Assembly (NCBI GenBank): GCA_963764515.1
Contig: CAVXSS010000001.1
Span: 194,677-258,676 of the forward strand
DNA: 64,000 nucleotides
Reading direction: 5' to 3'
Source of the DNA: an uncultured Chloroflexia bacterium
GTDB taxonomy: Bacteria > Chloroflexota > Limnocylindria > Limnocylindrales > CSP1-4
Position 1 is the first letter of the stretch. Each line of letters opens with the position of its first letter. Position numbers and translations under genes: made by a program. Below are positions 46,140-58,025 of the stretch, one piece after another. The notes below the pieces were generated by a model. The model was given only the letters and a program-made list of their open reading frames with translations. It did no database searches and had not been told where the DNA came from.

Positions 46140-47411
46140 TCAAGTGCCGGCCGGATGACCCCCGAACCGCATCGAATCGGGCGCGAACGAATCGAGGCGT
46201 GACCTCGAGGCCGCCCACGCGGCCTCGTCTCCGGGGCCGGGCATGGCGTGCGCCCCACGCCGTCCGTCGAGGTCACCGCTCAGCACGATCTGGCCATCGC
46301 CGATCACGAACGCCAGGTGGTCCGGCCGCGGTCCGGGTGTCGCCAGGACACGGAGCGGGACGTCGCCCGGGTCGACGACCTCGCCGTCGGCCAGCTCGCG
46401 GACGGCGTACGGCAGCCGTCGTCCCCCACCAGGACCGACGACCACCTCGATCGCGAGTTGCTCGGCGACGGCCTCGGCGCCGGCCGCGTGGTCCGGGTCG
46501 ACGTGGGTCAGCGCGATCACCCGGATCGTGCCGCCGCGCTCCGCTGCCACCTCGATCGCCCGCTCCGCGCCGGGTCCCGTCGGGTCCCCCGGGTCGACCA
46601 ACACGAACGAACGGCGGCCGACGAGATAGGCGTTGACCGGCTGGCCCGCGACGCCGCCACCGGCCGGCATGACGATGCGGACCACGTCCTGGGCCACCTC
46701 GTCGACCTCGACCTGACCGAGGGTGCCGGCCGCCAACCGCGAGCGAACGTCCCCGAACTCGCGAACATGCTCGAGCTGCTGGAGTGTCGTGCTCGTCGGC
46801 AGCCAGAGAGCCAAACCGCCGGCCGCCATGGCGTCGAGAGCATCGGTCGGACGCAGCCACGCGTGTTCGACCACCTCCTCGCCCTCGATCGTGGCCCTGG
46901 CCCCGTCCGGCAGCTCGGCCGCGAAGAAGCGGGCGTCGAACCGGCGCGGAAAGGTCGGAGGAGTGACCCAGCGGGACAACGGCACGAGCCAGTCCGTCCG
47001 GAGCGTGAGGTCGAGCTGCGCGGCGAGCGCCTGGAACCCGATCTCGCCACCGACCAGGGCCGCACGTGCCGCCCCCAGCGCGCCCGGCGACAAGCCCGGG
47101 CCGACATCGGCGAGCAACACACCTGCTTCCTCGAACGACTCGCGGATCGCGGCGATGAACGCGGCGATCGCCTGGGCCGGTGGCAGGTCGCCGCCCATGG
47201 CGGCCGCCGCATCCTGAGGTGACGCGACGGACCGCGCGACCAGGCTCGGGTGGGCATCGGTCGGGTCGACCCGGCCGCCCGGGAAGACGTGGACATCCGG
47301 AGCGAATGCCATCGACGCCGGCCGGCGACCCAGCAGGACTTCGTGGCCGGCCCTTCCGGAGCGCATCAGGACGACGGTCGCCGCCGGCCGGGCCTCGACC
47401 GGGTCAGCCAC
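46140..47411 (-). CDS. NUDIX hydrolase fused to an MBL-fold metallo-hydrolase domain
   Basis: N-terminal Nudix box (GGRVDP...REsFEEaGV). C-terminal beta-lactamase fold ([12 protein letters not shown], cf. HxHxDH). The GTG at 47411 gives an 8-nt overlap with the upstream stop. The ATG at 47441 is the alternative. Confidence 0.7.
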
Positions 47412-49458
47412 CGGCAGCCACGAGCTGCGTACGGAACCCATCGACGTCAGTGACCGGCAAGCGGCAGACGAAGCCCCGGCAGACGTAGGCGGTCGGGCGC
47501 CCATCGATCGCCAGGCGCTCGGCCAGCAACGGCACGACGCTCGCGGCGGGATCCGCGCTGACGGCCACGACCCGGTGCGGGCGGAACCCGGTCTCGACGA
47601 CCGCGAGGAGCACCTGCGTCGCCGGATCGGCGAGATCGCCGACGATCGCCACCTCGACCGCCGGCGACAGTGCGAGGTCCATCGCCGAGAGCCACTGCGC
47701 GAAGCCGGTCGGATAGCGCCCGACGAACCCGACGACGGTCCGGAGTGCGCGCTCGGCCGCATCGCGGTAGCGCCCCTCCCCGGTCCATGCCGCCAGGCGG
47801 AGCAGGACCAGGGTCGCGACCGCGTTCCCGGAGGGCACCGCGTTGTCCTGGAGGTCCTTTGGCCGCACCACGAGGCGCTCGTGGTCGTCGGCGGTGTCGA
47901 AGAACCCGCCGGCGGGGTCCGCGAACCGCGCGAGCACGCGGTCCATCAGCGCCCTGGCGGTCGTGAACCATCGTTCGTCGAAGGTCGCCTCATAGAGCGC
48001 GAGCAGGCCGTCCGCCAGGTGCGTGTGATCCTCGAGCACACCCTGACCCGTGGCCCGGCCATCCTTCCAGGAACGTGCCAGTGTGCCGTCGGCGGCCAGC
48101 AGCCCGCCCGTGATCGACTCGGCGGCTCGCGCCGCCGCCGCCCGATACCGCTCCGAGGCGTCCGGATCGTCCCGGCGCAGCAGACGCGCGGCGTCGGCGA
48201 AGGCCGCGATCGCGAGGCCGTTCCAGGCCGCGAGCGCCTTGTCATCGCGGGCCGGCTGCGACCGCTCCGATCGGCGCGCCAGGAGGCGGGCGCGCGAGCC
48301 CGCAAGGCTCGCCTCCAGTCGAGCGTCATCTCGCGGCGGCGGCGTGTGCATGTCCGGCCAGACACGCGAGAGGATCGTGCGGCCCTCCCAGTTGCCCTCG
48401 TCGGTCGCGCCGTAGGCGGCGAGGAAGGGCTCGGCATCGTCGCCGAGGACCTCCCGGATCTCGGTCGCGGTCCAGACGAACGTCAGTCCCTCGATGCCTT
48501 CGGTGTCGGCGTCCTGGCTCGCCGCGAAGGCGCCGTCGGCGGTCGTGAGCTCGCGGATCATGTAGTCGAGCGTGCCCATCGCCACGTCCCGATACCGGGT
48601 TTCGCCGGTCTGCGCCCAGGCGTGGAGGTAGACCCTCGCGAGCTGGGCGTTGTCGTAGAGCATCTGCTCGAAGTGGGGCACGAGCCAGACCGGGTCCGTC
48701 GAGTAGCGGTGGAAGCCGCCACCCAACTGGTCGTGGATGCCGCCGTCGGCCATCTTGTCGAGCGTGAACCGGACGACGGCATCGAACCGGGCGTCGCCGC
48801 CGGCAAGCCGGCGGAGCAGGTATTCGATGGTCATCGGTTGGGGGAACTTGGGCGCCCCGCCCCAGCTGCCGTTGCGCGCGTCGAACGACCCTAGGAGCCC
48901 GCTCGCAGCGGCCTCGAACAGCGCCGGCGTCGGGTCGTCCGTGCCCGCCTCGATGCGTTGCTGGGCCACGAGCGCGGCCACCAGCCGGGTCCCGGCCCCC
49001 TCCACCTCGGCGCGCTGGTCGAGCCAGGTGCGGTCGACGCCCTCGAGGACCTGGCGGAAGGACGGCATCCCGTGGCGCGGTTCGTCGGGGAAGTACGTGC
49101 CGCCGTAGAAGGGCTTGCCGTCGGGGGTCAGGAAGACCGACATCGGCCAGCCCCCACCGCCGGTCATCGCCTGGACCGCGCCCATGTACAGCTGGTCAAG
49201 GTCGGGGCGCTCCTCGCGATCGACCTTGATCGAGATGAAATGGTCGTTGAGGTAGCGGGCGGTCGGCTCGTGCTCGAACGATTCACGCTCCATGACGTGG
49301 CACCAGTGGCACGCTGCGTAGCCGATCGAGAGGAAGATCGGACGGTCGAGCAGTTTCGCGCGCGCGAGGGCGTCGGGGCCCCACGGGAACCAGTCGACGG
49401 GATTGTTGGCGTGCTGGAGCAGGTATGGGCTCGTCTCGCCGGCAAGGCGGTTGGGCAT
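47404..49458 (-). CDS. Thioredoxin-domain protein of the YyaL/DUF255 family (N-terminal thioredoxin fold + six-hairpin glycosidase-like domain)
   Basis: [46 protein letters not shown] matches the DUF255 CxxC block. ~684 aa. Confidence 0.8.
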
Positions 49459-49635
49459 GGGTGGATGGTACGTGGCAGGCCCCGTCACCATCGTCTGGTG
49501 ACTGGCCGCCACACAAGGCGCCGGTTTTGGTGCCGGGCGGCACCAGGACCTGGCGAATAACGGCCAGATGAAGGGTCGCGCGTATGGTGTTGGCGACCGA
49601 CCAGGCATACGCTGGCCGCCCGCCAGGAATAGGGG

Positions 49636-51444
49636 GTGTCCTCGGTGGTGAGGAGACTCGGCTCGGTCGTTTCGGCGCTGCTCCTCGCCGGCGTCCTCGC
49701 GTCGGCAGGCGTGGTCGCGCCGGTCGCCGCCGCCTCAGCGGTCCCCAAGGTCGTGTTCGTCGTCGGGCCGGCCGGCGCGGCCACGGATCACTACCGGGGA
49801 GAGGCGCGTGCGGCAGCGGCCGTCGCGCGGCGGTACACGCCCGACGTCACCGAGATCTACTCCCCGAATGCCACGTGGCCCGCGGTCAAGGCCGCGCTCC
49901 AGGGAGCATCGCTGGTCATCTACATGGGTCACGGCAACGGCTGGCCCAGCCCGTACCGCGACGCGCTCTATCGACCGTCCCAGGACGGCTTCGGGCTCAA
50001 CCCCAGGGCCGGCGGGGACGACGCCACGCATCAGTACTTCGGGGAGAGCCGGATCGCCGCCTCGATCAACCTCGCGACGAACGCCGTCGTCCTGCTCCAT
50101 CACCTGTGCTACGCCAGTGGCAACTCGGAGCCGGGCCTCCCGGAGGGCACGCTCGACCAGGCGAAGCAGCGGGTCGACAACTTCGCGGCCGGGTTCATCG
50201 CCGCCGGGGCATCGGCCGTCATCGCCGAGGCCGACGACGACCCGTCCGGCTACGTGAGATCCATCCTGGGCGGTGGACGATCCATCGATGCGATCTGGCG
50301 CTCCGCACCGACGGCCAACGACCACACCTTGGCGTTCACGAGCCAGCGCAGCCCCGGCTACGTCGCCCAGCTGGACCCGACGCACCCGACGTCGGGCTTC
50401 CGGCGCTCGATCGTGCTGCGCGAGGGCCTGGCGTCCGCCGATGTCCTCGCGGGTGCGCGCGGGTCGGCGAATCGCGGTTCGGCGACAGGCGGATCGCCCC
50501 CGATCGTGCCGGGGCCGCCGAACCTGCTCGCGACGGGGATCGGGCTCAGCACGCCGACCATCCACGGTTCGACGACGGCCACCGGCACGGCCACGCTCCT
50601 GATCCCCTTCAGGATCGCCGATCGGAACCAGCTGCCCGCGTCCATCGAGGCCAGCGTGCGCTGGGATCCGCTCGACGTGACGCTCGCCCCGACCGACCCG
50701 GCGACCGAGACTCCCGCCCAATCCGTCGCGCCCGTCGAATCCCCGACGCCGAGTGCCTCGCCCTCCGCCGAGCCATCCGCGACCCCGATTCCGACGCCCG
50801 AACCGCTCCAGCCGCCGCGACCGCCGATCGAGCTCGCGCTCGTGACGCCGGAACAGCTCGGCGACGTCGTCGCCCCGACCGAGCTGCATCTCGGCTCGAA
50901 GTACCTGTCGGTGCGGCTCGCCCTGCCCGCAGCGGCCGGCCGCTACCGCCTGACGATCACCCTGCATGACGGAGAGGGCGTCGCGTACGACCCGGCGACG
51001 CAGGCCGCCCTCCCGAGCCTCATCGTCCGCGTCACGGGCGATCCGGACGGTGCGATCCTCGTCGCCCCGACCGCGACCTTGACCGCGGGGAGCGACGTCG
51101 AGCTCCCGATCCGCGTCGTCAACCTGGGCACGTCCGCCTGGGGGCATGGCCCGACGCTCAGCAACCCCGGCCCGGACGGTCGCGCCGGCGAGGTCTCCGC
51201 GACCCTCGTCGGGCGCTGGCTGTCGCTCGGTGACGATTCATCCACGCTCATCCCCGCGAACGCCGAGATCGGCTTGCCGGCCGGCATGAAGCCGAACGTG
51301 CCCGTCGACCGCGGGCTCGAACTGAGGCTCCCGGCCAGCCCCGGCGAGTACCTCCTTGTCCTCGACGTCGTCACGCCCGAGGACGGCTCGCTGACCGCGG
51401 CCGGCGTCGAGCCCACGATCGTCAGGATGACCGTCGTCCCGTAG
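49636..51444 (+). CDS. Secreted caspase-fold (clan CD-like) putative cysteine peptidase with a Pro/Thr-rich linker and a C-terminal beta-rich domain
   Basis: Signal peptide ([30 protein letters not shown]). His/Cys dyad context [10 protein letters not shown] ... [13 protein letters not shown], each after a hydrophobic beta-strand. A PT-rich linker ([22 protein letters not shown]) follows. Confidence 0.5.
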
Positions 51445-51470: not shown

Positions 51471-51788
51471 GTGACCTTTGGGCGGGTGGCGAGTGACTTC
51501 GTGAAGATCGACATCGGGCTCATCCGGGGCATCAACGCCGACGTGTCACGCCAGGCACTCGTGGTCGGGCTGCTCCATTTTGCCCGCGCATCGAACTGGC
51601 ATGTCATCGCCGAGGGGATCGAGACGGCCGCCGAGCTGGCGACGTTGAGGGCTCTTGACGTGCGGTTCGGCCAGGGATTCCTGCTTGGGAAGCCGGGAGA
51701 CGCCGCCACCTGGAGCGCGACCGCCACCGGGGTGTCTTCGGTCAGTTCGAGCCCGCGACGACCGCCGCGCCCTACCATGGCTGCGTGA
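51471..51788 (+). pseudogene. EAL-domain C-terminal remnant (~80 codons of a c-di-GMP phosphodiesterase domain)
   Basis: DFVKIDIGLIRG...VIAEGIETAAELATLRALDVRFGQGFLLGKP are the last conserved EAL blocks. No upstream part of the domain appears in any frame. The stop overlaps the DUF72 GTG (GTGA). Confidence 0.5.
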
Positions 51789-52822
51789 GCGACGCCGTCC
51801 ACGACCCCGGCCCCGATCGCAGCGCGGCGCGCGTCGCGGATCTGCCGCCCGATGTCGCCGCGGAGCCCATCCACCTCGGGCCCGGCCCCGCCGATACCGG
51901 CATCGTCCGGATCGGGACCGCGTCCTGGACCGACCCGACGATGACCGCGGCCGGCGTCTTCTATCCCGAGGGCGCCGACTCCGCCGAGGAGCGCCTCGGC
52001 TATTACGCCAGTCGGTTCCCGCTCGTCGAGGTCGACGCGACCTACTACGCGCTCCCCGCCCGGCGGACGGCCGAGCTATGGGTCGAACGCACCCCGCCCG
52101 ACTTCACCTTCGACGTCAAGGCACACGCCCTGATGACCGGCCAGCCGACCGAGACGAAACGCCTGCCGAAGGACCTCCGGGCCGCTCTCCCCGACGACAT
52201 CGCCGCGAAGCCGCGCATCTACGCCAAGGACCTGCCCGATGCGCTGCGCGACGACGTCTGGGCCTGGTTCGCCGACGGCCTCGAGCCGCTCAAGGAGGCG
52301 GGCCAGCTCGGCTCGATCCTGCTCCAGTACCCGCGCTGGTTCTTCACCTCATCGGAGAACCGCGCCCAGATCGAGGAAGCCATCGGTCGCCTGCGGGACG
52401 CGGGGATGACCGGCGCGGTCGAGTTCCGGAGCGCGTCGTGGTTCAACGAGAAGAACATCGAGCGGACGCTCAAGTTCCTCGGCGATCGGGGGATCCCGAT
52501 GGTCATCGTCGATGGCCCGCAGGGCTTCAAGTCGAGCGTGCCCGCGGTCGTCGCCGCCACCTCACCGGAGCTCGCGATCGTGCGTTTCCACGGCCGCCGG
52601 ACGGAGACCTGGGAGGCGAAGGGCATCCAGACCGTCGAGCGGTTCCGCTACCTGTACGACCGCGACGAGCTCAAGGAATGGGCGCCGCGCGTCCAGGAGA
52701 CCGCGGGCCAGGCGAAGGACACGCACGTCCTCTTCAACAACTGCTACGCGAACTACGGCGCGACCAACGCGCTCGAACTGGCGCAGCTCCTGCTCGACCT
52801 TGAGGCCGCCGACTCGTCGTAG
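51785..52822 (+). CDS. DUF72 family protein
   Basis: IRIGTASWTDP ... YALPA ... FRSASWFNEKN, typical DUF72 blocks. 345 aa. Confidence 0.75.
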   Translation: MSDAVHDPGPDRSAARVADLPPDVAAEPIHLGPGPADTGIVRIGTASWTDPTMTAAGVFYPEGADSAEERLGYYASRFPLVEVDATYYALPARRTAELWVERTPPDFTFDVKAHALMTGQPTETKRLPKDLRAALPDDIAAKPRIYAKDLPDALRDDVWAWFADGLEPLKEAGQLGSILLQYPRWFFTSSENRAQIEEAIGRLRDAGMTGAVEFRSASWFNEKNIERTLKFLGDRGIPMVIVDGPQGFKSSVPAVVAATSPELAIVRFHGRRTETWEAKGIQTVERFRYLYDRDELKEWAPRVQETAGQAKDTHVLFNNCYANYGATNALELAQLLLDLEAADSS

Positions 52823-52828
52823 CGACGA

Positions 52829-53362
52829 CTACGTCGAGGCGTCGCGGAGCGCCTCCGCCCGGAGCTTGGCCAGGTACGCCGAGGCACCCTTGTAGTTCGG
52901 CCACGTGACGTCGTGCTCGTACGGCGATGACGCCTCGGAGAGTCGGTGACTGCCAGGTGCAATGGCTCGACCACCAGCAGCAGCCCGCAGTCGCCGGTCG
53001 AAGGTCATGAGGGATCCCTCAACCGCGTCAGCAAGGGCCAGGTACATCGCGTCGTACGAGGTCAAGGAGTGCCGCTCGGCAAAGTCGATCGCCGACAGCA
53101 GCAACGCTCGATCCAACTCGACCGTTTCGAGCTCCATCTCGTCGAGGTCGCGCAGCGCCCGAACGACCTCGGAGGTGGGCCAACGATGACGCCGGATCAG
53201 CGAATTCACGACCTCGAGCCAGAAGTGCGACGGGGTGACGATCCGGCGACGCTCGCGAGTCCATCTGTCAACTGCAATCGCGGCGGCAGATCCTTCGGAC
53301 TCATCGCGAACGATCGAGACCGCCACGGAGGCGTCGATGACGATCGCGGGCAACTCATTCAT
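52829..53362 (-). CDS. vapC: PIN-domain toxin of a type II TA pair (VapC-like) with a C-terminal extension
   Basis: AIVIDASVAVSIV (first PIN acidic residue) ... LTSYDAMYLALA. The ATG overlaps the antitoxin stop (ATGAATGA). Confidence 0.75.
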   Translation of the reverse strand: MNELPAIVIDASVAVSIVRDESEGSAAAIAVDRWTRERRRIVTPSHFWLEVVNSLIRRHRWPTSEVVRALRDLDEMELETVELDRALLLSAIDFAERHSLTSYDAMYLALADAVEGSLMTFDRRLRAAAGGRAIAPGSHRLSEASSPYEHDVTWPNYKGASAYLAKLRAEALRDAST

Positions 53363-53696
53363 GGTCGAGCGGGGGGAGTCCACGAGCCGCACGATCGATT
53401 TGTTCGTCTCGCCGTTCGTATTCGCGATGTCGCCATTCGACCTCGGTCAGGCCATCGTCCGGGGGCGGGTACTTCTCGGCCATCTCCTTGCCGAGTGCGA
53501 CGAGCCGATCGAGGGCGGCCAACCGGCGTCGAAGGCGCTCATCCTGATCGGGATCCAACCGCCGGCCATCCTCCACAGACACCAGGTACGCCAGGGGGCG
53601 ATGGTCGCGCTCGATCAGGATCCGCTCGCCCGCCGACGCGGCGTCGAGGATCTCGCCGAGGCGCTTGCGCATGTCCATCGCCGTCACGGTTCTCAT
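53355..53696 (-). CDS. vapB: Phd/YefM-type antitoxin
   Basis: MRKRLGEILDAASAGERILIERDHRPLAYLV matches the Phd/YefM N-terminal fold. It lies immediately upstream of the PIN gene. Confidence 0.75.
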   Translation of the reverse strand: MRTVTAMDMRKRLGEILDAASAGERILIERDHRPLAYLVSVEDGRRLDPDQDERLRRRLAALDRLVALGKEMAEKYPPPDDGLTEVEWRHREYERRDEQIDRAARGLPPLDHE

Positions 53697-53963
53697 GATT
53701 GATCATGATAATCGTATATCATGGTCGGTCGAGGCGCCACGGCGCCCGGCCAGCCGGGCGGGCGTGCTTCCCAGACAGCACGGGGCGTCCCAAGGGCCTG
53801 ATCGACCATGCTGGGTGCCCATTCGGTGTCTGGTGGGCACGCGTGCGCGCCCAACCCGCTCGATGCAACGGTTCAGTGCCATGGTGCTGTCTGCCAGGCA
53901 CGCGCACGATCCCGGCCCAAATCCATGACGTCGCGCAGATATCGCTGTCGTAGGCTATCGCCT

Positions 53964-54578
53964 ATGAGTGCGAACGCCGTGGCTGGCTTCCTGCCGAGCA
54001 CCTGGGGGCTGCATTTCGCGAACAACTATCCGTCGGGGCCCACCGTCAAGCTCGGGCCCCTCGATCCGCGCTGGGTCGGCATCGGCGACGCGAGTTCGGG
54101 CCTGTGCGGGGGGATGAGCTGGTACGTGCGCGACGCGTTCGCGGCGAAGCGCCCGATCCCGCCCGACACGACCGCCCCGGCCAACGGCACGCCGCTGTTC
54201 AAGGCGATCGTCCGGAACCAGGTCCAGTCGCTCTACTGGCTGAGCGTCCCGCTGCGGTTCTACTGGCTATCGGCATTCGTCGGCGGCAAGCCCGGCCGCC
54301 GGGCGGTCGACCATGAGTGGGCCAAGATCACCGGCGCCATCGACGCCCAGAAGCTGCCGATCATCGGGCTCATCCGCAAGTCGTCGTGGAACCCGTTCAA
54401 GCTGACCTCGAACCATCAGGTCCTCGCGTACGCCTACGACGACGATGGCACGACGCGCCACCTGAAGCTCTACGACCCGAACCACCCCGACGACGACACG
54501 GTCGTGATCACCATCGACGCATCCGGCCTCAAGCAATCGACCGGCGAGGACCTGCTCGACCTCTTCAACGCGGGGTAG
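53964..54578 (+). CDS. Hypothetical protein, putative papain-fold cysteine peptidase
   Basis: 204 aa. Candidate triad Cys (GLCGGMSWY), His (SNHQVLAY, ~112 residues later) and Asp (YDPNHPDDD, ~16 residues later). This spacing recalls YopT/AvrPphB (C58)-type enzymes. Confidence 0.35.
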   Translation: MSANAVAGFLPSTWGLHFANNYPSGPTVKLGPLDPRWVGIGDASSGLCGGMSWYVRDAFAAKRPIPPDTTAPANGTPLFKAIVRNQVQSLYWLSVPLRFYWLSAFVGGKPGRRAVDHEWAKITGAIDAQKLPIIGLIRKSSWNPFKLTSNHQVLAYAYDDDGTTRHLKLYDPNHPDDDTVVITIDASGLKQSTGEDLLDLFNAG

Positions 54579-54949
54579 GAGGAGACAAGGGACTGGGGTC
54601 CAACGAGCGCGCCTGCTTGGAGCAACCGTCGGAATTGGGCGGTGATAGCGGAGACTTGATCGGGGCTCGGCCAAGCCGCCCGTCCGGTTGGCAGCAGCAG
54701 AGGTCGTCCCGCGAACACGGGTGGTTGATCGACACCGATGCGGTGACGGCCGCAGCCTCCCTGAAGTGCTTGCTCGATACGTTCACGACGAAGTCCGACA
54801 ATCAATGATGCGGATGGGTGCGACGCCCGCCGACAAGCGATCGACGCAGATCGAGTTCACGAATTGACTGCTCCGCTTCATGAGCAGCGCCAAGACAAGC
54901 GGGCCAGCGTTTGATGACGCCATCGACATCTCGGGTACCTTTCGAGCCT

Positions 54950-57700
54950 GGGTGACCTGACAACCGGAGATCGTCCTCCCATCGAAGGGACACGCTAGTC
55001 GGAGACCCTGCGGTCAAGGGCACAACGACTTCCAGATTGGAACGGTCGGTCGTGAGATCGAGAGTGCCGATCGGATCGATCTCTTGTGTGCGTTCGTACG
55101 GTTCGCAGGGCTTCGGCTGATCCGACCGCAGGTACAAGATTTCCTCCTCCGTGCTGACCAAATCCGGCCAACGCAGCGACCGGCCTAAGGAGCGCCGAGC
55201 CCTCGACGACCCTCAGGCCATGGAACCAAGGTCAGGACCCGTAAGACTCGCAAACACGACTGTACGCGGAGGCCTGGCTCTTTCATCGCGATTCCGGCTA
55301 CCACACCGCATATGTCGGGTCATCGAACCTCACCCATTCGGCCCTGCTAGACGGCCTCGAATGGAACATTCGCAACGGCCATCGACGACGCGTCGCGTCA
55401 TCGCATCCGCGACTTCGAGCAGTACTGGAATGAACCGGAATTCGAGTCATACGACCCTCGTGTCGACGGAGAGCGCCTGGAGCAGGCCCTCAACCAGCAG
55501 AAGGGCATGACGCTCGCACCCGAGGCGTTCAACATCTCAATCGAGTTTGGGCCCAAGCCGTTTCAGCAAGAAATGCTCGAGGCGCTCGCGGCCGAGCGAC
55601 AGCGTGGCCACATGCGAAACCTCGTTGTCGCGCCAACTGGAACCGGGAAGACCTGGGTATCCGCCTTCGACTACAAGCGCCTGCGGAGCGAGGGATTGGA
55701 CCGCCTGCTCTTCGTGGCTCACAGAGACGAGATCCTGCAGCAGAGCCAACAGGTCTTCAGGTATGTCCTCGACGACATGTCATTCGGCGAACGTCACGTG
55801 GGAGTCGAACGACCGGCAATCGGCGATCATGTCTTCGCTTCGATTCAGTCGTCATCGACCTCATACGCCCGAGGTCGGTACGACCTCGTAGTCATCGATG
55901 AGTTCATCACGCCGAGTTGACCAGACGTGCCCGAATCTCCAGGATCTGTCGACCACAGGTCTTGCTAACTAGGCGACCCCGGATACGCGCCGGATGACAG
56001 CACATTCGTTGACGGTTCGACAACCGGATCGCTTGCGACATGCGACTGTGGCAGGCGCTGGATCAGGGCCTGCTCTCGCCGTTCCACTATTTCGGCGTTC
56101 ACGACGGTACCGATCTACGCGGCGTTGCTTTCGAGCGTGGGCGGTACGCCCCCGGCGAGCTCGAGGGCATCTCACCGGAGACCAGTCCGCGCTCGTCGAA
56201 GTCTCGATTCCGCCCAGGAATGGGTGCTGGACGGAACGAAGATTCGGGAACTCGGGTTGTGCGCCGGGGTCGCGCACGCCCAATTCATGGCCGACCAATT
56301 CAACCAAGCGGGCTTGCCTGCAGTCGCGCTGCATGGTGGTTCGCCTCGTGACGTCCGCGTCAATGCCGTTAGGCAGCTTCGAAGAGGCGAACTGCGAGCC
56401 ATCTTCACGGTCGACATCTTCAACGAAGGTATCGACATCCCGGAGGTCGATACGATCCTCCTACTCCGACCCACGGAGAGCGCGACCATATTTCTTCAGC
56501 AGCTAGGCCGGGGTCTGCGCTGGGCCGAAGGCAAGACCGTGCTGACGGTCCTCGACTTCATCGGTCAGTCCAACGCCAAGTATCGGTTTGATCTCCGGTA
56601 CCGCGCGATCATGGGCGGGACCCGCCAGCAGCTGCGACGAATGATCGAAAGTGGCCTCCCACAGGGGCCGCCCGGTTCCGCGGTGCGATTAGACGTGATC
56701 GCCCAGGAAATCGTCCTCGAGAACGTCCGGAGCAGCCTGCGACTCAGTCGGCGGGAGCTTGTCGACGATCTGCGTGGGATGCCTGCTAACACGACGCTGG
56801 GCGAGTTCCTGGCAGCAAGCGAACACGAACTCAGTGACGTCTACTCGAGCCCAGGCCAGACCTTCATGTCGCTGCGACGGGCTGCCGGGCATGTCCGCGG
56901 ACCCGCCGATCCAATGGAACAGGACGGGTCGAAGGCGTTGGCGCGGATCCTCCATGTGGACGACGAGGAGCGATACGCGCATTGGACGCGATTCCTCAAC
57001 GGTGGTCCGATTGATACGGACATTGCCAGCCGCGAAGGGCGCCTCAACCTGATGCTCTTCGCCGCGTTGGGACATTGGAAACGGCCCGTGACTGATCTCG
57101 CGACCACCTTGGACGCGTTCCGCGAGAATCCGGCCCTCCGGGATGAGCTCGGCCAGCTGTAGAGGTCTGCGGGACCTAACCGCTCGGAGACTCGCCCGGT
57201 CAAGCGCCTCGGGGCCGGTTCCGTTGCACAGCCACGCTACGTATGGCCTTTACGAGTTGATCGCTGGTTACGGCATGATCAGCAAGGAGCGGCTCCGAGC
57301 GAATCGTGAGGGATTGGCCTGGGTCCCGGAACAGCAGACTGACCTGTTCTTCGTGACCCTGAACAAGTCGGATGACGACTACTCGCCAACGACCAGGTAT
57401 CAGGACTATCCGATCTCCCCAACTTGATCCAGTCGAGGCGGACACGGCGTCGTCGCCCACTGGTCGGCGCTACATCAATCATGTCGCACTTGGGTCGAAG
57501 ATCGTCCTCTGCGTTCGCGAGAACCGGAAAGATGGGCGTGGTGAGTCGGCGCCCTACGTCTGTCTCGGACCCGCCAGATTGGTTCGACACGAGTCGGAGA
57601 AGCCGATTAGATCGTTTGGGAACTCGAACGGCCAATGCCAATCGAGATGTTCCAGTCAGCGAAGGTGGCCGCCGGCTGAGCTCGGCAAGTGTACCAGGCC
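54950..57700 (+). pseudogene. Decayed gene for a PLD-like nuclease / SF2 helicase / DUF3427 protein, broken by multiple frameshifts and stops
   Basis: Pieces lie in three frames. PLD/HKD fragment: IDLLCAFVRFAGLR ... AWLFHRDSGYHTAYVGSSNLTHSALLDGLEWNIRN. Helicase motif I: NLVVAPTGTGKTW, then DEF at 55900. Motifs V-VI: TVDIFNEGIDIPEVDTILLLRPTESATIFLQQLGRGLR. DUF3427-like tail: YSPTTRYQDYPISPT / RRYINHVALGSKIVLCVRE...PYVCLGPARLVRHE. Confidence 0.65.
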
Positions 57701-57951
57701 AAGTCGAGGTTCGGGTAGCGAGCGGCGAGTTCGTCGAGGGTGAACGAGGCAACGCCGAGGCGGGCTTCGGTTCCGTCCAGATCGGTGATGACGGCGTCCA
57801 CCAACAGCTCGGCATCCCCAGGTCGAAGTTCTATGTTTTCGAGGACGAGCTTCACGATCTGCGGCAGGGTCTGGGCGACCTCGTCGCGGAGTTCCCGGCC
57901 GTACGCTCGAATGACGATGTTCAGTGCCCAGCGACGACTGGCTGATCCCAT
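57607..57951 (-). CDS. Hypothetical protein (114 aa)
   Basis: Protein-like ORF (LPQIVKLVLENIELRPGDAELLVDAVITDLDGTEARL) at the right edge of the lower-GC island. No family recognised. Confidence 0.3.
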   Translation of the reverse strand: MGSASRRWALNIVIRAYGRELRDEVAQTLPQIVKLVLENIELRPGDAELLVDAVITDLDGTEARLGVASFTLDELAARYPNLDLAWYTCRAQPAATFADWNISIGIGRSSSQTI

Positions 57952-58025
57952 GCCGTGACACTACCGGGATCGCTGGAGATCGTCGATCGGGCAAATCGCA
58001 CCAGAGTGCCCGTCCCCGAGCCTGC

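What the first reader, a model, noticed from the sequence alone, without database searches (positions are those of the whole stretch)
49636..51444. Secreted caspase-fold protein with a PT-linker and beta-rich C-terminal domain
The signal peptide is followed by a domain whose His (YMGHGNGW) and Cys ([11 protein letters not shown]) each follow a hydrophobic strand. This is the arrangement of clan CD peptidases (caspase, gingipain, clostripain, legumain). A Pro/Thr-rich linker and a ~250-aa C-terminal domain come next. This could be a secreted or cell-surface protease.
Basis: partly seen in the sequence, partly recalled or inferred. Interest (0 to 1): 0.55.

Follow-up and report, generated by a model that had tools for sequence, protein, structure and literature searches.

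The report
Secreted caspase-fold-like cysteine protease, new family
This gene most likely encodes a secreted, cell-surface cysteine protease whose catalytic domain is a distant, previously unrecognised relative of the caspase/gingipain/separase group (clan CD); it belongs to a large family seen so far only in Chloroflexota soil and freshwater bacteria, and no database has named it.

Summary
The ORF (49636-51444, +, 602 aa) is real and built as described. It has a signal peptide, a ~245-aa alpha/beta N-terminal domain, a Pro/Thr-rich segment of variable length, and beta-sandwich C-terminal domains.

The caspase-like (clan CD) reading is supported, but only at clan level:
- H99 (YMGHGNG) and C158 (HLCYASG) each follow a predicted strand. 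They are kept in 144 and 146 of 150 diverged representatives.
- C158 is the only cysteine in the protein.
- The best solved-structure matches to the N-domain model (pLDDT 83, pTM 0.86) are separase, a secreted C11 protease and the Craspase CHAT protease. The scores are weak (E 4e-3 to 0.15, TM 0.32-0.44).
- Sub-threshold Pfam hits in diverged members recur to Peptidase_C25, C50 and CHAT, always on the stretch that ends at the His.

No known family threshold is met, and the profile match to C25 is marginal (8 of 200 shuffles score as high). The protein therefore fits a new clan-CD-like family: at least 2,074 proteins and 1,143 clusters at 50% identity, named members all Chloroflexota, mostly Limnocylindrales. 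Diverged relatives carry cell-wall-binding tails (CWB2, SLH, SH3, GW), which suggests action at the cell surface. Substrate and P1 specificity are unknown, and no activity has been tested.

The parts
49636..51444 (+). Whole gene, 602 aa plus stop: signal peptide, clan-CD-like domain, variable Pro/Thr segment, beta-sandwich domains
   Evidence: ORF listing. The identical protein is in public MAG assemblies (P0001; L001). At least 2,074 homologues.
49636..49737 (+). Signal peptide (residues 1-34): RR n-region, hydrophobic core, A-S-A before the predicted cleavage site; no Cys, so not a lipoprotein
   Evidence: Sequence and hydropathy. Modelled as a low-confidence helix at residues 9-23. The same layout is seen in all homologues. 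Judged by inspection; SignalP was not run.
49741..50475 (+). N-terminal alpha/beta domain (residues ~36-280), the putative clan-CD-like catalytic domain
   Evidence: Most conserved region, 74% mean identity. Model has pLDDT 83 and pTM 0.86. Foldseek top hits are separase, C11 and CHAT. Recurrent sub-threshold C25/C50/CHAT Pfam hits.
49921..49944 (+). His motif YMGHGNGW; the H99 codon is 49930-49932; it follows strand 93-97; putative catalytic His, followed by Gly
   Evidence: Translation. H99 kept in 144 of 150 representatives, G98 in 149 and G100 in 148. hhalign places it on catalytic His211 of gingipain R.
50092..50124 (+). Cys motif [11 protein letters not shown]; the C158 codon is 50107-50109; it follows hydrophobic strand 150-155; putative nucleophile
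   Evidence: Translation. C158 kept in 146 of 150 representatives. It is the only Cys in the protein, and 90 of 120 close homologues have exactly one Cys.
50521..50670 (+). Conserved beta segment before the linker (residues ~296-345), pLDDT 84-95; probably part of an Ig-like sandwich
   Evidence: Strands 308-310, 318-326 and 338-345 in the full-length model. Conserved motif ...FKIKDR..LP...ASVRWDP.
50671..50865 (+). Pro/Thr/Ala/Ser/Glu-rich disordered segment (residues 346-410)
   Evidence: 26% Pro, 12% Thr; length 35-192 aa among homologues. pLDDT below 50.
50866..51441 (+). C-terminal beta-sandwich region (residues 411-602), all-beta
   Evidence: Thirteen strands of 3 or more residues, pLDDT mostly 80-93. 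Foldseek matches to alpha-2-macroglobulin MG domains, RbmA FN3 domains, transglutaminase beta-barrels and the Deinococcus HPI S-layer.
47404..49608 (-). Context only: divergently transcribed DUF255/YyaL thioredoxin-fold gene, a conserved neighbour
   Evidence: Pfam Thioredox_DsbH, 1.3e-73. Upstream and divergent in 76 of 84 loci. No functional link is shown.
53964..54578 (+). Context only: conserved co-directional neighbour 'ORF204', an unannotated ~205-aa protein with invariant Cys48/His151/Asn173/Asp178
   Evidence: Present in 69 of 84 loci and only 80-190 bp downstream of the target in about 18 of them. Invariant residues. At least 5,426 homologues, all 'hypothetical'. No Pfam, PDB or PADLOC hit.

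Best explanation
The gene encodes an exported, probably cell-surface-associated cysteine peptidase. Its ~245-aa N-terminal domain has a caspase-hemoglobinase-like (MEROPS clan CD-like) alpha/beta fold.

Proposed mechanism (inferred): after Sec export and signal-peptide removal near Ala34, Cys158 acts as the nucleophile and His99 as the general acid/base. Cys158 sits at the C-terminal end of the hydrophobic strand AVVLL(H/N)HLC, and His99 sits at the end of the preceding strand LV(I/V)YMGHG, followed by Gly. The enzyme would then cleave, or possibly transpeptidate, a specific peptide bond chosen mainly by the P1 residue, as clan CD enzymes do.

The conserved polar residues around the dyad are candidates for the S1 pocket. 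They are Y134, E137, H/R156, E165, R179, D181, N182, E/D198, R238, D247 and R257. The Pro/Thr-rich segment and the beta-sandwich domains would act as a stalk or a binding module. In diverged relatives the same catalytic domain is fused to cell-wall-binding modules, which suggests substrates in the cell envelope or at the cell surface.

Shown: gene, architecture, conservation, predicted fold, weak but convergent similarity to clan CD. Inferred: catalysis, dyad roles, export, site of action. Unknown: substrate, P1 specificity, activation mechanism.
For: (1) Dyad geometry and conservation. His follows strand 93-97 and Cys follows strand 150-155, in the order His then Cys. H99 is kept in 144 of 150 and C158 in 146 of 150 diverged representatives, and the flanking G98, G100, G102, Y159 and G162 are at least as well conserved.

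(2) C158 is the sole cysteine of a 602-aa exported protein, and 90 of 120 close homologues have exactly one Cys. It therefore cannot form an intramolecular disulfide. An invariant lone thiol fits a nucleophile.

(3) The N-domain model is good (pLDDT 83, pTM 0.86). Foldseek against the PDB ranks clan-CD-fold proteins on top: separase 9hm7 (E 4.4e-3, prob 0.99), ctSPD 5fby, B. thetaiotaomicron C11 6n9j, Craspase TPR-CHAT 7y84/8d9f/7y85 (TM up to 0.44) and Raptor 5wbk. That is about 16 of the top 50. Most of the rest are flavodoxin-like proteins, which share the 2-1-3-4-5 parallel core.

(4) Among 56 diverged members scanned against Pfam at E <= 10, the sub-threshold enzyme-family hits seen in more than one member among the 25 listed families were clan CD families: Peptidase_C25 in 12 members (best E 0.0072), Peptidase_C50 in 6 and CHAT in 2. 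Where coordinates were seen, the C25 and C50 hits cover the same stretch, beta1/alpha1 through beta3 and GHG. The family consensus hits only Peptidase_C25 (E 0.01).

(5) hhalign aligns [33 protein letters not shown] with gingipain R 181-214, KIIKCYDPGVTPKNIIDAFNGGISLVNYTGHGSE. This puts H99 on catalytic His211.

(6) The N-domain is the most conserved part of the protein (74% mean identity, against 53% for the C-terminal region and 43% for the linker), as expected for the functional core.

(7) Tails of diverged members are surface or cell-wall modules: CWB2 (E 1.5e-55), SLH, SH3_3, GW, Ig-like, PKD, fn3.
Against: All similarity to known peptidases is below conventional significance:
- No Foldseek hit has E <= 1e-3, TM-scores are 0.32-0.44, and generic flavodoxin-like folds score almost as well.
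- Pfam scores are 10-16 bits against cut-offs of 23-28.
- hhalign probability is 4-10%. In my shuffle control, 8 of 200 column-shuffled C25 alignments scored as high as the real one, an empirical P of about 0.04.
- hhalign did not place C158 on the catalytic Cys244 of gingipain.
- PDB sequence and profile searches found nothing relevant.

The beta-sheet order, a defining feature, could not be checked because no coordinates were accessible. The region between His and Cys, where caspases have alpha3, is poorly predicted (pLDDT 44-68). No prodomain or other activation device is apparent. Genomic context gives no functional clue. No enzymatic data exist.
Confidence: 0.67

Rival explanations
1. The N-domain is a flavodoxin-like or Rossmann-like alpha/beta domain that uses Cys158, with or without His99, for different chemistry on the cell envelope. 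Examples would be a peptidoglycan or teichoic-type amidase, an esterase or an acyl-transferase, rather than a clan-CD-type peptidase.
For: Flavodoxin-like proteins (MdaB, azoreductases, flavodoxins) make up about a third of the top 50 Foldseek hits, with scores close to the clan CD hits. Cell-wall-binding tails (CWB2, SH3_3, SLH, GW) are typical of cell-wall hydrolases. In one locus an M15_4 D-Ala-D-Ala carboxypeptidase gene sits directly upstream, and a VanY gene lies about 7 kb upstream in the near-identical locus L001.
Against: Flavodoxin-like hits are expected for any domain with the shared 2-1-3-4-5 core. They carry no His/Cys pair at the ends of beta3 and beta4. The only enzyme families picked up at sequence level are clan CD peptidases. 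A Cys-then-His order, as in class I amidotransferase or DJ-1-like hydrolases, is not available, because no conserved His follows C158 in the domain. CWB2-anchored cysteine proteases are also known; Cwp84 is mentioned in PMC12445089.
Confidence: 0.17
2. The protein acts as a transpeptidase (a sortase-like or ligase-like enzyme) rather than a hydrolase. It would attach or mature surface proteins of these bacteria, as the clan CD enzymes GPI8 and PorU do in other organisms. This is a sub-variant of the main explanation.
For: The fold and dyad evidence is the same as for the main explanation. The gene is single-copy, syntenic and highly conserved across Limnocylindrales, which looks like a housekeeping envelope function rather than a nutritional protease. 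That transamidases have arisen repeatedly within clan CD is my own background knowledge and was not tested here.
Against: No candidate substrate family with a shared sorting signal was looked for or found. No membrane anchor is present in the protein. Hydrolysis is the default outcome for this chemistry.
Confidence: 0.1
3. The protein is a non-catalytic surface or S-layer-type structural protein or adhesin. Its His and Cys would be conserved for structural or metal-binding reasons.
For: The beta-sandwich C-terminal domains resemble adhesin, S-layer and matrix proteins such as RbmA, the HPI S-layer and invasin-like proteins. No activity is demonstrated.
Against: The alpha/beta domain, not the beta-sandwich part, is the most conserved region. 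It is kept while the tails are swapped freely. A lone invariant thiol next to an invariant His, in the canonical strand-end positions, is hard to explain structurally.
Confidence: 0.06

Closest known systems
Gingipains and Peptidase C25 (MEROPS clan CD; Pfam PF01364), e.g. RgpB, PDB 1cvr
   Same: Both are exported bacterial proteins with a His-Gly ... Cys dyad at strand ends, followed by an Ig-like beta-sandwich domain. This is the most frequent weak Pfam hit (12 of 56 members, plus the consensus). The local alignment [10 protein letters not shown] / ISLVNYTGHG puts H99 on catalytic His211.
   Different: Scores are below the Pfam cut-off (at most 15.6 bits against 23). hhalign probability is 4-10% and the empirical P is about 0.04. 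Pfam detects no C25 propeptide (PF08126) and no C25 Ig-like C-terminal domain (PF03785), whereas true C25 homologues show both. The catalytic domain is about 245 aa against about 350 aa. The His-Cys spacing is 59 residues against 33. There is no T9SS C-terminal domain. The host phylum is Chloroflexota, not Bacteroidota.
Separase (C50) and the CHAT protease of Craspase (TPR-CHAT)
   Same: These are the best structural matches to the N-domain model: 9hm7 (E 4.4e-3, prob 0.99), 5fby, and 7y85 (TM 0.44). Weak Pfam C50 and CHAT hits cover beta1 to the His motif.
   Different: Those enzymes are intracellular, regulated and embedded in large multidomain proteins. Here the domain is N-terminal, exported and stands alone as the catalytic unit. 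The similarity is sub-threshold.
Clostripain family C11, e.g. the secreted B. thetaiotaomicron C11 protease (PDB 6n9j) and PmC11
   Same: A secreted bacterial clan CD peptidase. It is the third-ranked structural hit and has the longest alignment (271 columns, TM 0.39).
   Different: There is no Pfam Peptidase_C11 hit at any threshold listed. C11 enzymes have an extended nine-stranded sheet and a helical C-terminal domain (PMC4357240), whereas this protein has beta-sandwich tails.
Cwp84-type cell-wall-anchored cysteine proteases (clan CA, C1) of Clostridioides difficile
   Same: This is an analogy of architecture only: an exported cysteine protease domain fused to cell-wall-binding repeats. CWB2 occurs in 4 of 56 diverged members of this family. 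Cwp84 is cited in PMC12445089.
   Different: The fold (papain-like) and catalytic order (Cys then His) are different. There is no homology.

Membership tests
MEROPS clan CD (caspase-hemoglobinase fold cysteine peptidases) | Alpha/beta/alpha sandwich with a central sheet of order 2-1-3-4-5-6, strand 6 antiparallel (PMC4357240) | tested here: inconclusive
   The secondary-structure order fits: beta1-alpha1-beta2-alpha2-beta3 ... beta4-alpha-beta5-alpha-alpha-beta-hairpin. The top Foldseek hits are clan CD proteins, but E is 4e-3 to 0.15 and TM 0.32-0.44. The sheet order could not be read because no coordinates were accessible.
MEROPS clan CD (caspase-hemoglobinase fold cysteine peptidases) | Catalytic His at the C-terminal end of beta3, next to Gly (His-Gly) | tested here: met
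   Strand 93-97, then G98-H99-G100. H99 is kept in 144 of 150, G98 in 149 and G100 in 148.
MEROPS clan CD (caspase-hemoglobinase fold cysteine peptidases) | Catalytic Cys at the C-terminal end of beta4, after a hydrophobic block, and after the His in sequence | tested here: met
   Strand 150-155 (AVVLLH), then H-L-C158. C158 is kept in 146 of 150 and is the sole Cys of the protein.
MEROPS clan CD (caspase-hemoglobinase fold cysteine peptidases) | Site-specific endopeptidase activity governed by the P1 residue | not testable with these tools
   This needs enzymology. Candidate S1 residues are listed only from conservation.
Peptidase C25 (gingipain family, PF01364) | Sequence match at or above the Pfam gathering score (23 bits), or a significant profile-profile match over the catalytic domain | tested here: not met
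   Best scores are 13-15.6 bits. hhalign against a 21-sequence C25 profile gives prob 4%, with only 12-32 columns around the His. In the shuffle control, 8 of 200 shuffles reach the real score.
Peptidase C25 (gingipain family, PF01364) | Accompanying C25 propeptide (PF08126) and C25 Ig-like C-terminal domain (PF03785) | tested here: not met
   Neither is detected in the window protein at E <= 10. Both are seen in true C25 homologues.
Peptidase C50 (separase), CHAT, Peptidase C11, C13, C14 | Pfam match at or above the gathering score | tested here: not met
   The window protein has no hit. In diverged members, C50 reaches at best E 0.095 (12.3 bits against 27.8) and CHAT at best E 0.0065. C11, C13 and C14 are not among the 25 listed families.
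Sec-exported protein (signal peptidase I substrate) | Basic n-region, hydrophobic h-region, small residues at -3 and -1 (A-x-A) | tested here: met
   R6-R7; hydropathy peak of 2.2 over residues 10-30; A32-S33-A34. The layout is conserved in homologues. Judged by inspection only. The RR is not in a canonical Tat context.

The most novel reading that the evidence does not exclude
This is the founding member of a new, ninth-or-later clan CD family found only in Chloroflexota. It would serve as a housekeeping cell-envelope maturation enzyme: a site-specific protease or sortase-like transpeptidase for surface or S-layer proteins. It may work together with the equally unannotated, co-directional Cys-His-Asn/Asp protein (ORF204) that accompanies it in most Limnocylindrales genomes.
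Probability: 0.2. Interest if true: 0.65.

Novelty: new variant of a known kind. Interest (0 to 1): 0.5.

Why it matters
MEROPS lists only eight clan CD families (PMC12445089), and new ones such as YabG are added rarely. This candidate family is large, with at least 2,074 proteins and 1,143 clusters at 50% identity. It has no Pfam or NCBIfam model and is annotated only as 'hypothetical' or, wrongly, as 'FlgD'.

The family is a conserved, syntenic gene of Limnocylindria, an abundant lineage of soil and freshwater bacteria known here only from metagenome-assembled genomes. Its fusions to CWB2, SLH, SH3 and GW modules suggest that it acts on the cell envelope, which in Chloroflexota is, to my knowledge, poorly understood. 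If the activity is confirmed, it would add a family to clan CD, give a handle on surface-protein processing in this phylum, and correct thousands of annotations.

The practical gain is modest unless the substrate proves to be unusual.

Tried and rejected
- **Direct family assignment.** Pfam, NCBIfam, PADLOC, and PDB sequence and profile searches of the window protein and of family profiles gave nothing relevant.
- **Fold search with the full-length model.** It was swamped by the Ig/FN3/MG-like C-terminal domains. The N-domain had to be modelled alone.
- **Membership of Peptidase C25.** I built a real C25 profile from RgpB homologues. hhalign aligned only the His motif at 4-10% probability, and the shuffle control gave P of about 0.04. 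Rejected as a C25 member and kept as a clan-level hint.
- **Functional inference from gene context.** The DUF255, NUDIX-MBL and ORF204 neighbours are conserved. This looks like lineage synteny: alternative contexts (an M20 peptidase with MarR and KAS; M15_4; a multicopper oxidase) share no theme. The A2M-like and S8 neighbours occur in one species only; L003 and L028 are the same contig.
- **Apparent paralogy.** Three loci in MAG MFD09267.bin.2.90 each carry the whole neighbourhood, so they more likely reflect strain mixture in the bin.
- **Lipoprotein and Tat export.** There is no Cys in the signal peptide, and the RR is not in an S/T-RRxFLK context.
- **Class I amidotransferase or DJ-1-like Cys-His hydrolase.** No conserved His follows C158.
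- **Identity of the partner ORF204.** No Pfam, PDB or PADLOC match was found, and all 120 listed homologues are 'hypothetical'.
- **Literature.** I found no paper that describes this family.
Full report
**1. What is there**

Window 49636-51444 (+) is an open reading frame of 602 codons in a region of about 71% G+C. The identical protein occurs in public metagenome-assembled genomes (P0001; locus L001). The large protein database holds at least 2,074 homologues with E <= 1e-3. All are 'hypothetical' and none has a precomputed Pfam domain.

The protein itself matches nothing in Pfam, NCBIfam, PADLOC or PDB sequences.

YMGHGNGW is at 49921-49944 and [11 protein letters not shown] at 50092-50124.

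**2. Architecture**

- **Residues 1-34** look like a Sec signal peptide: R6-R7, a hydrophobic core, and A-S-A at 32-34. There is no Cys, so this is not a lipoprotein. I judged this by inspection, since SignalP was not available. Homologues mostly begin M/V-RRL, so the true start may lie 3-4 codons downstream.
- **Residues ~36-280** form an alpha/beta domain. It is the best conserved part, with 74% mean identity to 39 homologues, against 53% for the C-terminal region and 43% for the linker.
- **Residues ~296-345** are a confidently modelled beta segment.
- **Residues 346-410** are 26% Pro and 12% Thr, have pLDDT below 50, and range from 35 to 192 aa among homologues.
- **Residues 411-602** are all-beta, with pLDDT mostly 80-93.

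The full-length model matches MG domains of alpha-2-macroglobulins, the FN3 domains of RbmA, transglutaminase beta-barrels and the Deinococcus HPI S-layer protein, which are generic Ig-like sandwiches.

About 192 aa, not about 250, follow the linker. Part of the beta-rich region precedes the linker.

**3. The His/Cys pair**

In a 40-sequence alignment, H99 and C158 are invariant. I then searched the N-domain alone against 1.84 billion cluster representatives. This found 1,143 clusters with E <= 1e-3, of which 400 reach E <= 1e-30. The domain is always near the N-terminus, in proteins of roughly 300-1,100 aa.

In the 149 best representatives plus the query, H99 is kept in 144 of 150 and C158 in 146 of 150. 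The following residues are kept in at least 138 of 150: G98, G100, G102, P104, Y134, G136, E137, Y159, G162, E165, R179, D181, N182, R238, D247 and R257.

C158 is the only cysteine in the whole protein, and 90 of 120 close homologues also have exactly one. A lone, invariant thiol in an exported protein cannot form an intramolecular disulfide. It is what one expects of a nucleophile.

**4. Fold**

The N-domain modelled alone (residues 34-276) has mean pLDDT 83 and pTM 0.86. Its order of elements is beta1, alpha1, beta2, alpha2, beta3, then the His. A poorly ordered loop with small beta bridges follows, then beta4 and the Cys, a long helix, beta5, two helices, and a beta-hairpin.

Foldseek against the PDB gave no hit with E <= 1e-3. 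The ranking is still telling:
- human separase 9hm7 (E 4.4e-3, prob 0.99);
- the separase protease domain 5fby;
- the secreted B. thetaiotaomicron C11 protease 6n9j;
- the TPR-CHAT protease of Craspase (7y84, 8d9f, 7y85; TM up to 0.44);
- further separase entries, and Raptor's caspase-like domain.

That makes about 16 of the top 50. Most of the remainder are flavodoxin-like proteins, which share the parallel 2-1-3-4-5 core.

**5. Sequence-level links**

I scanned 56 diverged members (30-45% identical to the window protein over the full length) against Pfam at E <= 10. Among the 25 listed families, the enzyme families hit by more than one member were Peptidase_C25 (12 members, best E 0.0072), Peptidase_C50 (6) and CHAT (2). 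All three are clan CD families.

Wherever coordinates were shown, the C25 and C50 hits fall on the same stretch, from beta1/alpha1 to just past GHG. That corresponds to C25 profile positions 192-252 of 374 and C50 positions 271-332 of 395. A plurality consensus of the diverged N-domains hits only Peptidase_C25 (E 0.01, 15.6 bits, cut-off 23).

hhalign aligned family residues 70-102 with RgpB 181-214, 36% identical, placing H99 on catalytic His211. A 21-sequence C25 profile gave the same 32 columns.

These matches are weak. Probability is 4-10%, and in my own control 8 of 200 column-shuffled C25 alignments scored as high. The Cys register was not recovered. By eye, PFIFDVAC in RgpB and VVLLHHLC here share the pattern of four hydrophobic residues, three others, then Cys.

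**6. Verdict on identity**

Four lines of evidence point the same way, although none is individually strong:
- the dyad geometry;
- near-invariance, together with the lone cysteine;
- the structural ranking;
- recurrent clan-CD-only sub-threshold hits in register at the His.

I conclude that the N-domain is most likely a caspase-hemoglobinase-fold (clan CD-like) cysteine peptidase domain. It is not a member of C25, C50, CHAT, C11, C13 or C14 by their own thresholds. MEROPS listed eight clan CD families in March 2025 (PMC12445089), and this would be an additional one.

**7. How it probably works (inferred)**

The protein is exported by Sec and the signal peptide is removed. Strand beta1 starts only 2-3 residues after the predicted cleavage site, so there is no N-terminal prodomain. 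If the enzyme is made as a zymogen, control would have to come from the C-terminal parts, as in legumain (my own knowledge, not tested here).

Cys158 attacks the scissile carbonyl and His99 protonates the leaving group. Specificity would come from an S1 pocket lined by loop residues after beta1, beta3, beta4 and beta5. Candidates from conservation are H/R156 (two residues before the Cys, the position of Gln in caspase QAC by my own knowledge and of Asp177 in PmC11), E/D198 after beta5, and R179, R238 and R257. I cannot predict the P1 preference.

**8. Where it acts**

Tails vary freely behind the constant N-domain. Those seen include FlgD_ig, Big_13, PKD, fn3 and CHU_C-like sandwiches, and in some members CWB2 (E 1.5e-55), SLH, SH3_3 and GW. 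These are cell-wall or surface-binding modules, so the cell surface or envelope is the likely site of action. JGI's name 'flagellar hook assembly protein FlgD' for some members derives only from the Ig-like domain.

**9. Distribution and context**

A pattern scan of one genome per GTDB species found 389 loci. The 80 best are almost all labelled Chloroflexia, Chloroflexota or Candidatus Limnocylindrales (taxonomy). The named diverged members are also Chloroflexota. The scan patterns were close to the query, and I could not see the tail of the 1,143 clusters, so restriction to Chloroflexota is likely but not proven.

Across 84 loci:
- the DUF255/YyaL thioredoxin-fold gene is divergent upstream in 76;
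- a NUDIX-metallo-beta-lactamase gene lies beyond it in 65;
- an unannotated ~205-aa gene (ORF204; window 53964-54578) lies downstream on the same strand in 69, and only 80-190 bp away in about 18.

In the window, DUF72 and a PIN/Phd toxin-antitoxin pair lie between the target and ORF204. Loci without these neighbours have unrelated contexts. I read this as lineage synteny. It gives no mechanism.

**10. Rivals**

- Another Cys-dependent envelope hydrolase on a flavodoxin-like scaffold (0.17).
- A transpeptidase variant of the same fold (0.10).
- A non-catalytic surface protein (0.06).

These are set out in the rival-explanations section, with the evidence for and against each.

**11. Novelty and interest**

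I found no paper on this family. It is a new, large, unannotated family within a well-known kind of enzyme. That is interesting for protease classification and for Chloroflexota envelope biology, but it is not mechanistically surprising. Interest 0.5.

Noticed in passing
window 53964-54578 (+); listed as ORF 53808-54578: An unannotated ~205-aa protein ('ORF204') with invariant Cys48 (GLCGGM), His151 (HQV), Asn173 and Asp178. The order resembles a papain-like Cys-His-Asn/Asp triad. It has no signal peptide and no Pfam, PDB or PADLOC match, yet at least 5,426 homologues exist, all 'hypothetical'. It accompanies the target gene in 69 of 84 loci and is often only 80-190 bp downstream on the same strand.
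   Followed up: partly
window 46140-49608 (-): A DUF255/YyaL thioredoxin-fold gene is transcribed divergently from the target, followed by a NUDIX-metallo-beta-lactamase fusion. They are conserved next to the target in 76 and 65 of 84 loci. The listed 734-aa ORF probably starts further in: the gene call in L001 is 684 aa, which leaves about 178 bp of intergenic DNA.
   Followed up: partly
window 51785-53696: A DUF72 gene (+) and a PIN/Phd-YefM toxin-antitoxin pair (-) sit between the target and ORF204 here. They are absent from many related loci (DUF72 in 14 of 84, PIN in 30 of 84), which suggests insertions into an ancestral gene pair.
   Followed up: partly
window 54001-58000: G+C drops to about 0.62 from about 0.71 elsewhere. 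In the near-identical locus L001 this stretch carries an HNH_2 endonuclease gene and an Eis-like acetyltransferase. ORF204 is only 90% identical between the window and L001, whereas the target is 100% identical. This may be a variable or acquired segment.
   Followed up: no
L024, L026, L046 (MAG MFD09267.bin.2.90): Three contigs of one MAG each carry the complete DUF255, target and ORF204 neighbourhood. This more likely reflects strain mixture in the bin than true paralogy.
   Followed up: no
L003 / L028 (same contig): In this species the family member is followed by ORF204 and then by a 1,463-aa alpha-2-macroglobulin-like gene (a protease-trap family). A subtilisin (S8) gene and a cadherin/Big_9 surface-protein gene lie upstream. 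This was seen in a single species only.
   Followed up: no
P0265, P0217, P0207 and their cluster members: Diverged members of the family are annotated by JGI/IMG as 'flagellar hook assembly protein FlgD', and one by NCBI as 'OmpL47-type beta-barrel domain-containing protein'. These names come only from the C-terminal Ig-like domains. The conserved N-terminal domain is unannotated.
   Followed up: yes
L010 (contig DASPHN010000204.1): A 3.1-kb contig that carries a family member (54% identical to the window protein over 587 aa) is binned as 'Candidatus Saccharimonadales'. Fragments of DUF255 and ORF204 flank the gene, so this is probably a mis-binned Chloroflexota contig.
   Followed up: no
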